IMG/VR virus record: IMGVR_UViG_3300033075_000861 | Coordinates: 20,291-84,290 of that record | Strand: one strand, 5' to 3' | Origin: a virus | Lineage: Duplodnaviria > Caudoviricetes | DNA: 64,000 nt | Shown here: positions 16,353-18,048 of the stretch, one piece after another | Numbering within the stretch: position 1 is the stretch's first letter | Layout of the letters: the number at the start of each line of letters is the position of its first letter | Made by a program: the position numbers and the translations under genes | Notes under the pieces: generated by a model | What the model was told of the DNA's origin: nothing | What the model saw: the letters and a program-made list of their open reading frames with translations, nothing else | Databases searched by the model: none

Positions 16353-16483
16353 TGACGGAGACATAATCGCCTGCGGGTTGATTCCTGTGGGATTCGATAC
16401 CCACAAATCCCTTGCGGGATGCCGACTTTTGAGGTCAGTGTGTTTACTTTACACGAAGGAACCGCAAACTGCAACTTCCGTCA
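16353..16483 (-). ncRNA. Stem-enclosed degenerate tRNA-Leu(CAA)-like RNA (cloverleaf 16379-16463)
   Basis: TGACGGA/TCCGTCA terminal stem; D-loop lacks GG; 8-nt T-loop TATCGAAT; CTCAAAA loop; long variable arm. Confidence 0.65.
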
Positions 16484-16484
16484 G

Positions 16485-16568
16485 TCGGGGAGGCGGGAGT
16501 CGAACCCGCATGGCTCAAGGCCGGCATGGTTTAAGCATGCTGTGTCTCACCATTTCCACCACACCCCG
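16485..16568 (-). tRNA. tRNA-Leu(TAA)
   Basis: GCATG-CTTAAAC-CATGC, long variable arm, A73. Confidence 0.85.
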
Positions 16569-16569
16569 A

Positions 16570-16875
16570 TTACTCGTAACCCAACTCCTTGATCGCCCTG
16601 TCGGCATCCTTCTTGTAGCCGATGCCGACCTTAGACCTCTCCCTCCTGATGAGGTTCTCCGCGTGTGCCTTGAGACTAAGGGCATCGGTGTTTCTTTTCC
16701 GCCACCTCTTCGCAGCACGTCTGTGTCCTTCGGGATTATCTTTCCTGCGTTGCCTCGATTTTTCAGCACGACATTGCAGGCACTGGTAGTCTAACCCAGA
16801 CTTGGTGGCTTCGTTTACGCCGAACGCCGAAGTCGGTTTGGCGTTTTTGCAACCGCTACAATAGGTCAGGTTCAT
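16570..16875 (-). CDS. Zinc-finger protein resembling an HNH N-terminus without the nuclease domain
   Basis: CSGC...GLDYQCLQC followed by a basic helix; no HNH motif. Confidence 0.55.
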   Translation of the reverse strand: MNLTYCSGCKNAKPTSAFGVNEATKSGLDYQCLQCRAEKSRQRRKDNPEGHRRAAKRWRKRNTDALSLKAHAENLIRRERSKVGIGYKKDADRAIKELGYE

Positions 16876-16902
16876 GTGAGTCTCCTGACCTATTGTAGCG
16901 GC

Positions 16903-17274
16903 TCAGAACTCGTCGTCGTTGGGCCAGTCGTCGGGGTCGGTGCCCCACTCCTCAAGGAAAGCCCTGACCTTCTTGCCCTTGTCGGTCAGCCAGCTTCCGC
17001 CGACGCTGCCGCCGTGTTCCATCAGTCCGTGAGCGTTTAGGAAGTACAGGATCAGCATGTCGTAGCCGCTGCCTGGGCCTTCCCAGTTGCCGCCGCGAGC
17101 GTAAGCCCACGCCTTGCGGTCGCCGCCCTCGTCGTAGGCTCTCAGCGTCTCCAAAAGGGCGTCGTAGCCCTCGTCGGGGTTGCCGCAGCCGCAGAAGTCG
17201 AGACTGCGGATGCCCTGAAGTCCTTCTTTCCAGGCTTGCATGGCTTCCATGTGTATCCTCTTCTTCCGCTTCAT
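16903..17274 (-). CDS. Hypothetical protein
   Basis: GAGGAG RBS; FCGCGNP and EHGGSVGGSWLT motifs. Confidence 0.65.
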   Translation of the reverse strand: MKRKKRIHMEAMQAWKEGLQGIRSLDFCGCGNPDEGYDALLETLRAYDEGGDRKAWAYARGGNWEGPGSGYDMLILYFLNAHGLMEHGGSVGGSWLTDKGKKVRAFLEEWGTDPDDWPNDDEF

Positions 17275-17290
17275 GTGACTCCTCGTTCCG

Positions 17291-17369
17291 TCTGATTGGT
17301 GGGAATCGAACCCACAGGGCCTCGCCGGCACGGTGTGCAACCGTTTGACCTGCCAATGTCTACAGCCAG
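17291..17369 (-). tRNA. Atypical tRNA with GCA (Cys) anticodon on a Tyr-like body
   Basis: Loop TTGCACA, C1-G72, A73, 13-nt variable region, D-loop identical to adjacent tRNA-Tyr. Confidence 0.65.
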
Positions 17370-17376
17370 ACGGAAG

Positions 17377-17459
17377 TGTGTCGTGCAGGAGTCGAACCTG
17401 CAAGGCTCTAAGAGCGGCACGGTTACAGCGTGCTGGGCCTGCCAATGCCCAAACGACAC
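17377..17459 (-). tRNA. tRNA-Tyr(GTA)
   Basis: GCACG-CTGTAAC-CGTGC, variable arm, A73. Confidence 0.9.
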
Positions 17460-17588
17460 ATGATGGGTGCAAAGCCCGGCGTAACCGTGCCCTGTCCGAA
17501 GTCGGTCAATTCATAGTCATCAGCCGCTTTTACGGCAACGCTCCGTTAGCTCCCATATCCACCGGGTTCGGACCCGGAGTTCATCCAG

Positions 17589-17670
17589 AAACGGCGGTGG
17601 GACTCGCACCCACGGTGGCTTACGCACCGGCTTTGCAGGCCGGCCCCTTCGCTGCTCGGGTCACGCCGTC
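17589..17670 (-). tRNA. tRNA-Cys(GCA) with long variable region
   Basis: CCGGC-CTGCAAA-GCCGG, U73, G1-U72. Confidence 0.8.
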
Positions 17671-17675
17671 ATGAG

Positions 17676-17813
17676 TGACGCTGGTCGGCATCGAACCGAC
17701 ACCACAGCACTATCCCCAACGATCCTCTCCCTTTGTGCTACAGGTATGGGAACCCCTGTGTCCGTAACTATTCGGGGACGTGTTATCTGAGGCCCGCCCT
17801 TCGCGGTGCGTCA
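17676..17813 (-). ncRNA. tRNA-like RNA with T-arm and multi-hairpin core
   Basis: TGACGC/GCGTCA terminal stem, GTCGG-TTCGATG-CCGAC T-arm, three internal hairpins. Confidence 0.6.
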
Positions 17814-17817
17814 TCAG

Positions 17818-17900
17818 TGCCTAAGGCGGGAGTCGAACCCGCATGCCCTTACGAGCGGCAGTTTTTGAAACTGCTGTGTATGCCTTTCCACCACTTAGGC
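17818..17900 (-). tRNA. tRNA-Leu(CAA)
   Basis: GCAGT-TTCAAAA-ACTGC, canonical D and T arms. Confidence 0.9.
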
Positions 17901-17903
17901 GTT

Positions 17904-18048
17904 TGACCGGAGAAATAGTCACTAAGGGTTTTTCTGTTTAGCTTCTCGGCCTTAGGGTTGGGCGAAGTGGCCGAGGTAGGATTTGCACCTACAATCTACA
18001 CTTTTTCAGGGTGTTGCTGAAGTATCCCTTAACTGCAACTTCCGGTCA
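17904..18048 (-). ncRNA. Circularly permuted tRNA-Phe(GAA)-like RNA
   Basis: Anticodon arm, T-arm and CTCGGCC-A precede GGCCGAG-AA-GCT; ends pair via TGACCGGA/TCCGGTCA. Confidence 0.7.

What the first reader, a model, noticed from the sequence alone, without database searches (positions are those of the whole stretch)
16353..18048. Two tRNA-like modules mounted on the same covarying terminal-stem scaffold
Seen: two spacers share a frame. At 16483-16353 it is TGACGGA-AGTTGCAGTT...GATTATGTC-TCCGTCA-AA; at 18048-17904 it is TGACCGGA-AGTTGCAGTT...GACTATTTC-TCCGGTCA-AA. The second copy has an extra C on the 5' arm matched by an extra G on the 3' arm, a compensatory indel. The cargo differs: a degenerate unpermuted tRNA-Leu(CAA) attached by its acceptor end, versus the permuted Phe-like tRNA attached by its D-loop. 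Each unit starts right after the discriminator of an upstream tRNA-Leu and ends just before the next tRNA, so routine tRNA processing would excise it. Canonical Leu(CAA) and Phe(GAA) genes lie nearby, so these are extra copies. Inference: a modular RNA with a conserved protein-binding stem plus a swappable tRNA mimic. This is analogous to Ro60-bound Y RNAs, but no Ro60 gene is in this window and the Y consensus is only loosely matched.
Basis: partly seen in the sequence, partly recalled or inferred. Interest (0 to 1): 0.88.

Follow-up and report, generated by a model that had tools for sequence, protein, structure and literature searches.

The report
Phage Y-RNA-like tRNA mimics in tRNA array
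Two small RNA genes hidden between tRNA genes of a giant phage share one conserved closing "handle" but carry different tRNA look-alikes. They belong to a family that, in related phages, goes with the RNA-binding ring protein Ro60, so they are most likely divergent Y RNAs, a known kind of RNA in an unusual form.

Summary
Two units (16351-16483 and 17901-18048, minus strand) share a scaffold and sit exactly between tRNA genes. The cargos differ: a whole Leu(CAA)-like tRNA, and a Phe-like tRNA permuted at the D-loop.

I found the same architecture in related huge-phage contigs, as 12 further copies. It runs: terminal stem, 4-7 nt 5' loop, 7-11 bp second helix, usually UAC, variable cargo, 7-10 nt 3' loop. 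Some copies have no cargo. Some have the YrlA order V-T-acceptor-D. One is scored as YrlA by Rfam (43.7 bits, E 2e-7). All 14 stems pair perfectly although nearly all differ in sequence.

Three phages carrying the family encode a true Ro60 ortholog. In one, a short copy lies about 56 nt downstream of the Ro60 gene on the same strand.

Weak points:
- The window's 84-kb contig (about 17% of the genome) has no Ro60 gene.
- Rfam, a covariance model and HMMs trained on relatives do not retrieve the window copies.
- Their link to the family rests on architecture, position and modest 5'-strand similarity (z 3.3-3.6).

Best reading: divergent Y RNAs with a Ro60-docking handle and a swappable tRNA mimic, released by tRNA processing. 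This is a new variant of a known kind. The scan has noted similar phage handle-RNA families on other genomes.

The parts
18049..18131 (-). tRNA-Leu(GAG). Its 3' end abuts the first base of unit 2.
   Evidence: ARAGORN
17901..18048 (-). Unit 2 (148 nt): Y-RNA-like scaffold with a Phe-like tRNA mimic permuted at the D-loop.
18041..18048 (-). Unit 2, terminal stem, 5' strand (8 nt, ends in CGGA).
   Evidence: programmatic parse
18034..18040 (-). Unit 2, 5' internal loop (7 nt).
18026..18033 (-). Unit 2, second helix, 5' strand (8 nt), followed by AUAC.
17929..18025 (-). Unit 2 cargo (97 nt): anticodon-like arm with GAA, T arm, closed acceptor-like stem-loop, degenerate D region.
17921..17928 (-). 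Unit 2, second helix, 3' strand.
17912..17920 (-). Unit 2, 3' internal loop (9 nt).
17904..17911 (-). Unit 2, terminal stem, 3' strand.
17817..17900 (-). tRNA-Leu(CAA), the canonical gene, directly downstream of unit 2.
   Evidence: Rfam 53.9 bits
16484..16568 (-). tRNA-Leu(TAA). Its 3' end abuts unit 1.
16351..16483 (-). Unit 1 (133 nt): the same scaffold around an unpermuted Leu(CAA)-like tRNA body.
16477..16483 (-). Unit 1, terminal stem, 5' strand (7 nt, ends in CGGA).
16470..16476 (-). Unit 1, 5' internal loop (7 nt).
16462..16469 (-). Unit 1, second helix, 5' strand (8 nt). Its last 2 nt overlap the tRNA-like acceptor stem.
16379..16463 (-). Unit 1 cargo: tRNA-like body, anticodon CAA, long variable arm, 8-nt T loop.
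   Evidence: Rfam tRNA 40.8 bits; not called by ARAGORN
16369..16376 (-). Unit 1, second helix, 3' strand.
16360..16368 (-). Unit 1, 3' internal loop (9 nt).
16353..16359 (-). Unit 1, terminal stem, 3' strand.
16277..16349 (-). tRNA-Phe(GAA), the canonical gene, directly downstream of unit 1.
   Evidence: Rfam 52.8 bits

Best explanation
The two units are divergent members of the bacterial/phage Y RNA family (YrlA/YrlB type). Each is transcribed as part of the polycistronic tRNA array and released as a discrete 130-150 nt RNA: RNase Z cuts after the discriminator of the upstream CCA-less tRNA, and RNase P cuts at the 5' end of the next tRNA (inferred). The paired 5' and 3' ends, the CGGA-containing 5' strand, and the 7-nt and 9-nt internal loops flanking an 8-bp second helix form the handle that docks a phage-encoded Ro60 ring protein (inferred from relatives). 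The distal tRNA-like body is the effector module that recruits or occupies tRNA-recognising proteins. By analogy with characterised Ro60-Y RNA particles, the RNP would tether Ro60 to an exoribonuclease such as host PNPase, or gate Ro60's RNA-binding cavity, during infection. The cargo is evolutionarily labile and is apparently refreshed from neighbouring tRNA genes, while the handle is kept.
For: 1) Scaffold identity between the two copies is far beyond chance, and both fold well.
2) A syntenic relative (L150: RNR-SbcCD-array, 72% identical array protein) carries a unit at the same place, directly after tRNA-Leu(GAG). That unit has the YrlA order V-T-closed acceptor-D. A second unit lies next to tRNA-Phe.
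3) Further copies lie in L154, L149 (586-kb contig), L167/G037 and G048, 12 outside the window.
4) A programmatic parse gives one geometry for all 14: terminal stem 5-8 bp, 5' loop 4-7 nt, second helix 7-11 bp, cargo 15-111 nt, 3' loop 7-10 nt. The window copies are 7-8 bp, 7 nt, 8 bp and 9 nt. There are 13 distinct terminal stems and 14 distinct second helices, all fully paired. Pairing is 100% in cis against 59-62% when the 3' strands are swapped among members.
5) The G048 array copy is aligned full-length by Rfam YrlA at 43.7 bits, E 2e-7. The Rfam consensus has the same scaffold layout.
6) Ro60 orthologs are present in phages carrying the family:
- G037: vWA_Ro60 52.6 bits and TROVE 31.6 bits, both over cut-off; PDB Rsr 2nvo E 5e-18.
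- The 586-kb contig, about 44 kb from its units, with both loci fetched in the record's own orientation.
- G048, with a short unit about 56 nt downstream of the gene on the same strand.
7) The 5' 30 nt of both window copies resemble that Ro60-adjacent RNA: z 3.3 and 3.6; 4 and 2 of 2000 shuffles as good.
8) Known actinophage YrlAs also sit inside tRNA arrays and also score below the Rfam cut-off, at 28-52 bits.
9) Published work: only the 5' strand is conserved among bacterial Y RNAs (10.1101/312249). A phage Ro60 binds CGAA-motif Y-like RNAs and host PNPase (PMC12135203).
Against: - No TROVE/Ro60, RtcB or RNA ligase gene lies in the 84-kb record that holds the window. The record is only about 17% of the genome.
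- No Ro60 gene was seen in the parts held of the closest relatives. L150 and L154 list no TROVE among their called genes.
- In G037 and the 586-kb contig, Ro60 lies 44-50 kb from the array units. This is outside the 4-kb, same-strand rule used to define YrlA.
- Rfam YrlA and Y_RNA give no hit on the window copies at E<=10.
- A covariance model from three short forms does not find them even with filters off.
- nhmmer profiles of the 5' and 3' halves of the relatives do not retrieve them.
- The 3' strands are not similar.
- The AUG that follows the terminal stem in every relative is replaced in the window copies.
- The geometry alone is not diagnostic: 51 raw matches in the window.
- Neither cargo has the canonical YrlA topology.
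Confidence: 0.66

Rival explanations
1. The units belong to the same conserved handle-plus-tRNA-mimic family, but they do not work through Ro60. The stem-closed tRNA mimics, with their intact Leu(CAA) and Phe(GAA) anticodon arms, act on their own or with another protein. They could serve as exonuclease-resistant decoys or sponges for host tRNA-targeting nucleases, modification enzymes or synthetases.
For: No Ro60 gene lies within 64 kb here, or within about 10 kb of the units in L149, L150 and L154. The window cargos keep anticodon arms that canonical YrlA lacks. The 3' loop of most relatives is U-rich and single-stranded. This could bind other RNA-binding proteins (my inference).
Against: Cargo-free short forms keep the handle, so the handle itself is the selected part. 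One such form sits directly downstream of a Ro60 gene. All three members' genomes that could be checked at length encode Ro60.
Confidence: 0.15
2. The units are decaying duplicates of tRNA genes. Their leader-trailer complementarity is a relic of duplication or recombination inside the array, and they have no function of their own.
For: Cargo 1 has a degenerate 8-nt T loop, and ARAGORN rejects both cargos. Canonical isoacceptor genes are adjacent. Homing-endonuclease ORFs are scattered through the array, so rearrangement is plausible. L150 has a degenerate Phe copy beside its unit.
Against: The handle is kept, with compensatory changes, in 14 copies across at least five phage lineages, while the cargo varies or is absent. 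The two window copies have unrelated cargo but nearly identical handles.
Confidence: 0.07
3. The handle is a processing or insulating element of the long tRNA precursor. For example, it could be a double-stranded RNase III or RNase E entry site that separates neighbouring tRNAs. The enclosed tRNA-like bodies would be incidental, or would be released as extra tRNAs.
For: The units always lie exactly between tRNAs. About 15 bp of interrupted duplex closes each unit.
Against: Most tRNA junctions in the same arrays lack such elements. Sequence-specific conservation of the 5' strand and loops is not needed for RNase III. One copy lies outside an array, next to Ro60.
Confidence: 0.07
4. Unit 2 is a genuine circularly permuted tRNA-Phe gene. 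The two opposed loops would act like a bulge-helix-bulge site, to be cut and ligated into a functional tRNA.
For: All tRNA parts are present in permuted order, with a perfect 7-bp acceptor stem. A relative encodes an RNA ligase near its array.
Against: The loops are 7 and 9 nt, separated by 8 bp, not 3-4-3. The array's tRNA-Tyr genes are 84-86 nt long with long variable arms, which is the bacterial type (my own knowledge). Bacteria lack the splicing endonuclease (also my own knowledge). The D stem has a mismatch and the anticodon stem a C-A mismatch. The same handle encloses an unpermuted tRNA and no tRNA at all in other copies. A canonical tRNA-Phe gene is present.
Confidence: 0.04

Closest known systems
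YrlA / YrlB Y RNAs of bacteria and mycobacteriophages (Rfam RF02553; Chen et al. 2014, PMC4201824; Wang et al. 2018, 10.1101/312249)
   Same: The 5' and 3' ends pair into a terminal stem. The 5' strand carries a GNCG(A/G)A-type motif. An asymmetric internal loop is followed by a second helix, then YUAY/UAC, then a tRNA-like effector module with a T arm and a closed acceptor-like stem. Several copies occur per genome, some without tRNA-like cargo. In phages they lie inside tRNA arrays.
   Different: The window copies are not scored by RF02553. The motif is CGGA rather than CGAA and lies inside the stem. The AUG after the stem is altered. Cargo 1 is an unpermuted tRNA joined through its acceptor stem. 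Cargo 2 is permuted at the D-loop and keeps an anticodon arm, whereas YrlA is permuted at the anticodon stem and keeps a D arm. No Ro60 gene lies within 4 kb.
Yrl1/Yrl2 bound by the Ro60 homolog of Thermus phage phiLo (PMC12135203)
   Same: These are phage-encoded Y-like RNAs with a stem-bulge-stem handle and a CGAA-type motif. They are shown to bind a phage Ro60, which also forms a RYPER-like complex with host PNPase.
   Different: Those RNAs lie directly upstream of the Ro60 gene and, as described, carry hairpins rather than tRNA mimics. I did not compare the sequences here.
Metazoan and Deinococcus Y RNAs with Ro60 (1yvp, 2nvo)
   Same: They have the same modular logic: a Ro60-binding terminal helix plus a variable effector loop. 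In vertebrates the conserved 5'-strand motif lies within a base-paired helix, as in the window copies.
   Different: They lack a full tRNA-like module, their sequences differ, and they are transcribed as single genes.
Circularly permuted tRNA genes (Cyanidioschyzon merolae type; from my own knowledge)
   Same: The tRNA parts of unit 2 are in permuted order, with paired precursor ends.
   Different: Those genes mature through bulge-helix-bulge cleavage and ligation by a eukaryal/archaeal endonuclease. Here the loop geometry differs and the host is bacterial.

Membership tests
YrlA-type Y RNA (Rfam RF02553; Chen et al. 2014) | [quoted passage not shown] | tested here: met
   The stems are 7 and 8 bp, perfect, with a compensatory C:G insertion.
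YrlA-type Y RNA (Rfam RF02553; Chen et al. 2014) | The 5'-strand motif GNCGAAN0-1G (CGAA motif). | tested here: inconclusive
   The window copies read GACGGAAG and (A)CCGGAAG, with one change (A to G). The same variant occurs in Ro60-adjacent actinophage Y RNAs. The motif is short and degenerate.
YrlA-type Y RNA (Rfam RF02553; Chen et al. 2014) | Stem, asymmetric loop, second helix, then YUAY opening the tRNA-like domain. | tested here: met
   The geometry matches 12 relatives and the Rfam consensus layout. AUAC is present in unit 2 but absent in unit 1.
YrlA-type Y RNA (Rfam RF02553; Chen et al. 2014) | A tRNA-like domain in the order V, T arm, closed acceptor stem-loop, D arm (permuted at the anticodon stem). 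| tested here: not met
   Unit 1 is unpermuted. Unit 2 is permuted at the D-loop and keeps an anticodon arm. The positional counterpart in L150 does have the canonical order.
YrlA-type Y RNA (Rfam RF02553; Chen et al. 2014) | A score at or above the Rfam gathering cut-off (69 bits). | tested here: not met
   There is no hit at E<=10. All phage YrlAs tested as controls also fall below the cut-off, at 28-52 bits.
YrlA-type Y RNA (Rfam RF02553; Chen et al. 2014) | Encoded within about 4 kb of a Ro60 gene, on the same strand. | tested here: not met
   No TROVE gene lies in the 84-kb record. The feature is met by one family member in G048, about 56 nt downstream. In two other relatives the distance is 44-50 kb.
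YrlA-type Y RNA (Rfam RF02553; Chen et al. 2014) | Physical binding to Ro60/Rsr. | not testable with these tools
   This needs EMSA or co-immunoprecipitation.
Canonical tRNA | A cloverleaf with a free acceptor end and discriminator, a 7-nt T loop, and a call by tRNA finders. | tested here: not met
   ARAGORN calls neither unit. Unit 1 scores 40.8 bits in Rfam tRNA, but it has an 8-nt T loop and its acceptor end continues into the handle. Unit 2 matches only model positions 9-63.
Permuted tRNA gene matured through a bulge-helix-bulge site | Two 3-nt bulges separated by a 4-bp helix, and a host with a tRNA splicing endonuclease. | tested here: not met
   The loops are 7 and 9 nt, separated by 8 bp. 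The array's tRNA-Tyr genes are 84-86 nt; long-arm tRNA-Tyr being the bacterial type is my own knowledge.

The most novel reading that the evidence does not exclude
The handle docks phage Ro60, and the interchangeable cargo programs the particle. Copies displaying intact Leu(CAA) or Phe(GAA) anticodon arms would present specific tRNA look-alikes to host tRNA-targeting defence nucleases or tRNA-binding enzymes. The Ro60-Y RNP would then be a modular, quickly re-armed counter-defence or tRNA-surveillance device, whose specificity is rewritten by recombination with neighbouring tRNA genes.
Probability: 0.1. Interest if true: 0.85.

Novelty: new variant of a known kind. Interest (0 to 1): 0.5.

Why it matters
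Y RNAs with tRNA-like modules are known next to Ro60 in bacteria and some phages, but what the tRNA mimic is for remains open. This huge-phage lineage offers a natural series in which the same handle carries no cargo, partial tRNA elbows, a canonical YrlA body, a D-loop-permuted tRNA or a whole tRNA. Copies at corresponding positions in related arrays carry different cargo. That makes the division of labour between handle and cargo directly testable. It also shows that current models (Rfam RF02553) miss much of the phage Y RNA diversity. And tRNA arrays of giant phages hold several unannotated small RNAs that annotation pipelines either skip or miscall as tRNAs.

Tried and rejected
- **Rfam on the units and the array**: only tRNA-type hits.
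- **Megablast and blastn against cultured phages**: only tRNA matches. The 595-kb phage LR756511 has small ORFs in its tRNA spacers (25 kb read) and no TROVE gene.
- **Exact-pattern scans of viral contigs with the window's own handle**: chance hits only.
- **SbcD as a probe for relatives**: one distant contig, with its array cut off.
- **A simple 3'-loop-plus-stem rule taken from phage Bxz1**: it did not generalise.
- **Covariance model R1 from three short forms:** it found further short forms and L154. It missed the window copies, L150 and the G048 YrlA. Likely reasons are that its maximum hit length is too short for 130-160 nt units and that the window loops differ.
- **nhmmer with half-scaffold profiles** and **short-word blastn**: neither retrieved the window copies.
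- **MAFFT alignments of full-length units**: they could not be brought into one register for the second helix. So I built no family-wide covariance model and did not use the count of structure pairs. Pairing statistics were computed by script instead.
- **TROVE search in 31 relatives of the MAG that holds L153**: 2 weak hits, uninformative about the host.
- **K-turn, loop E and bulge-helix-bulge readings of the loops:** considered by eye and dropped, because they are not conserved across members.
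Full report
**Observation.** The window is 64 kb of an 84,290-bp IMG/VR viral contig, estimated at 17% complete.
- G+C is about 61%.
- It carries myovirus and nucleotide-metabolism genes: tail sheath, class II RNR, CTP synthase and SbcCD.
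- On the minus strand, from 14.4 to 20.3 kb, lies an array of 15 ARAGORN tRNAs, restricted to Ser, Leu, Tyr, Cys and Phe.
- HNH and EndoVII-type ORFs are interspersed.

- The shared 14-mer occurs twice with no mismatch. Every other match in the window needs three mismatches. It occurs only twice in the whole record.
- Both units fold with z-scores of -4.3 and -4.0.
- Each begins at the base after a tRNA-Leu and ends 2-4 nt before the next tRNA.
- Cargo 1 is a Leu(CAA)-like tRNA body: Rfam tRNA 40.8 bits, an 8-nt T loop, rejected by ARAGORN.
- Cargo 2 holds a GAA anticodon arm, a T arm and a closed 7-bp acceptor-like stem, so it is permuted at the D-loop.

**Comparators.** Rfam gives no Y_RNA or YrlA hit on the units. 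I therefore looked at how known phage Y RNAs behave.
- Ro60 homologs occur in 354 cultured phage records.
- Around the Ro60 genes of Bxz1, Cashline, Mareelih, Pumpernickel and Kenrey, Rfam YrlA scores only 28-52 bits, always below its 69-bit cut-off.
- Several of these RNAs lie inside tRNA arrays, directly after a tRNA.
- They share this layout: terminal stem, a CG(A/G)A-containing 5' strand, a second helix, UUAYC, cargo, a short 3' loop, terminal stem. Each phage has several copies, some without tRNA-like cargo.
- So missing the Rfam cut-off does not exclude membership.

**Relatives.** A 123-aa protein encoded inside the array (16903-17274, minus strand) has homologs of 67-72% identity on other large contigs.
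- **L150** is syntenic with the window: RNR, SbcC, SbcD, then the array.
  - Directly after its tRNA-Leu(GAG), the position of unit 2, it carries a 158-nt unit with a terminal stem, 5' loop, second helix, UUAC, V hairpin, T arm, closed acceptor-like stem and a Leu-like D arm. This is the YrlA order.
  - A second unit follows tRNA-Phe and has a T arm and closed acceptor stem only.
- **L154** has a unit just before tRNA-Phe, with an anticodon-like arm, a T arm and a small hairpin.
- **L149**, from a 586,525-bp NCBI contig, has a 69-nt copy after tRNA-His that is the handle with only a small hairpin.
- A pattern taken from these relatives found **L167**, on the 188-kb contig G037, with more short copies.
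- The same kind of pattern found **L206**, on the 252-kb contig G048. Its array copy combines this handle with the canonical YrlA T, acceptor and D sequences.
  - Rfam aligns that copy full-length to YrlA at 43.7 bits, E 2e-7.
  - The printed consensus shows that Rfam's own scaffold has the same plan: 6-bp stem, AUG-containing loop, 7-bp helix, CUAC, 8-nt 3' loop.

**Link to Ro60.**
- **G037** encodes a 597-aa protein with vWA_Ro60 (52.6 bits) and TROVE (31.6 bits), both above cut-off. It matches Deinococcus Rsr (E 5e-18) and Xenopus and human Ro60 (E about 4e-13). The gene lies about 48-50 kb from the units.
- A 76%-identical ortholog lies on the **586-kb contig** at 176,705-178,495. That is about 44 kb from its units, with both loci fetched in the record's own orientation.
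- **G048** is one of 26 Ro60-encoding viral contigs. About 56 nt downstream of its Ro60 gene, on the same strand, lies a short copy of the handle. This is the classical Y RNA arrangement.
- The window's own record has no TROVE, RtcB or RNA ligase gene. Most of that genome is missing.

- Terminal stem 5-8 bp, 5' loop 4-7 nt, second helix 7-11 bp, cargo 15-111 nt, 3' loop 7-10 nt.
- The window copies give 7-8 bp, 7 nt, 8 bp, 85-97 nt and 9 nt.
- Thirteen terminal stems and all 14 second helices differ in sequence, yet every one is fully paired.
- Swapping the 3' strands among members drops pairing to 59-62%. Only 5-7% of swapped pairs are fully paired.
- The first 30 nt of both window copies align to the Ro60-adjacent G048 RNA with z 3.3 and 3.6. 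The main difference is a 2-nt insertion ahead of a shared hexamer.

Against this:
- Profile and covariance searches trained on relatives do not retrieve the window copies.
- Their 3' strands are not similar to those of relatives. This does agree with the published remark that only the 5' strand is conserved (10.1101/312249).
- The geometry alone has 51 raw matches in the window.

So the assignment rests on combined architecture, position in a syntenic array and modest 5'-strand similarity, not on a significant model score.

**Mechanism.**
- *Shown:* the anatomy, the conservation and covariation of the handle, the variability of the cargo, and the co-occurrence with Ro60 in three relatives.
- *Inferred:*
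  - Release by RNase Z and RNase P. The tRNAs here lack encoded CCA, and every unit I read that directly follows a tRNA starts with U.
  - Docking of Ro60 on the handle.
  - Use of the tRNA-like body to recruit or occupy tRNA-recognising factors.
  - Action together with an exoribonuclease, as in RYPER (PMC4201824, PMC12135203).

**Rivals.** The main rival keeps the RNA family but replaces Ro60 with another partner or a decoy role. Pseudogene, processing-signal and permuted-tRNA-gene readings fit the cargo-free copies and the handle covariation poorly.

**Novelty.** Y RNAs that mimic tRNA, including phage ones, are published, so the kind is known. New here:
- the lineage (huge phages with Ro60 tens of kb away);
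- multiple copies dispersed through tRNA arrays;
- two cargo topologies not described for YrlA: a whole tRNA attached by its acceptor end, and a D-loop-permuted tRNA that keeps an anticodon arm;
- apparent cargo swapping at corresponding positions.

Earlier notes of this scan describe similar handle-plus-tRNA-cargo RNA families beside Ro60-like genes in other phages. The theme therefore recurs in the scan.

Noticed in passing
window 17671-17816 (-): A third structured spacer lies between tRNA-Leu(CAA) and tRNA-Cys. It has a 9-bp terminal stem with one bulged C and a T-arm-like hairpin. A clearly similar element follows tRNA-Tyr in L154:2658-2790. It has a different handle from the two units and may be another array-embedded small RNA family.
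   Followed up: partly
window 20233-20306 (-): Rfam scores a tRNA here (46.5 bits) that ARAGORN does not call. The Rfam alignment marks a non-standard pair in its anticodon stem, and its loop sequence resembles that of the L154 unit.
   Followed up: no
L206:430-782 (-) (IMGVR_UViG_3300036766_000988): This Ro60-encoding huge phage carries a full bacterial class A RNase P RNA (263 bits, E 1e-85) beside its tRNA array and YrlA. Weak tmRNA-like hits lie nearby.
   Followed up: no
L154:2332-2462 and L154:2792-2918: These are two tRNA-shaped RNAs with intact acceptor, D and T arms. The anticodon region is replaced by an insert of about 60 nt. Rfam tRNA gives 50 bits over 127 nt for the second one.
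   Followed up: no
L150:8090-8160: A degenerate second copy of tRNA-Phe lies directly after the handle unit, before the canonical tRNA-Phe. It suggests local duplication and exchange between tRNA genes and unit cargo.
   Followed up: no
window 16903-17274 (-): A 123-aa protein of no known family, with conserved CxC and EHGGSVGGSW motifs, is encoded inside the tRNA array. It has 33 homologs on phage-like contigs, several of them inside tRNA arrays.
   Followed up: partly
L141:5727-5815 (Gordonia phage Mareelih, OP820470): The annotated tRNA-Leu(gag) overlaps a tRNA-Gln and the best Rfam YrlA hit of that locus (5767-5866, 52 bits). It is probably a Y RNA miscalled as a tRNA.
   Followed up: no
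L210 and L154: A Ro60-encoding contig (L210, run ERR2586216) and the unit-bearing contig L154 (run ERR2586215) come from consecutively numbered sequencing runs. They may belong to the same phage population. This is not shown.
   Followed up: no
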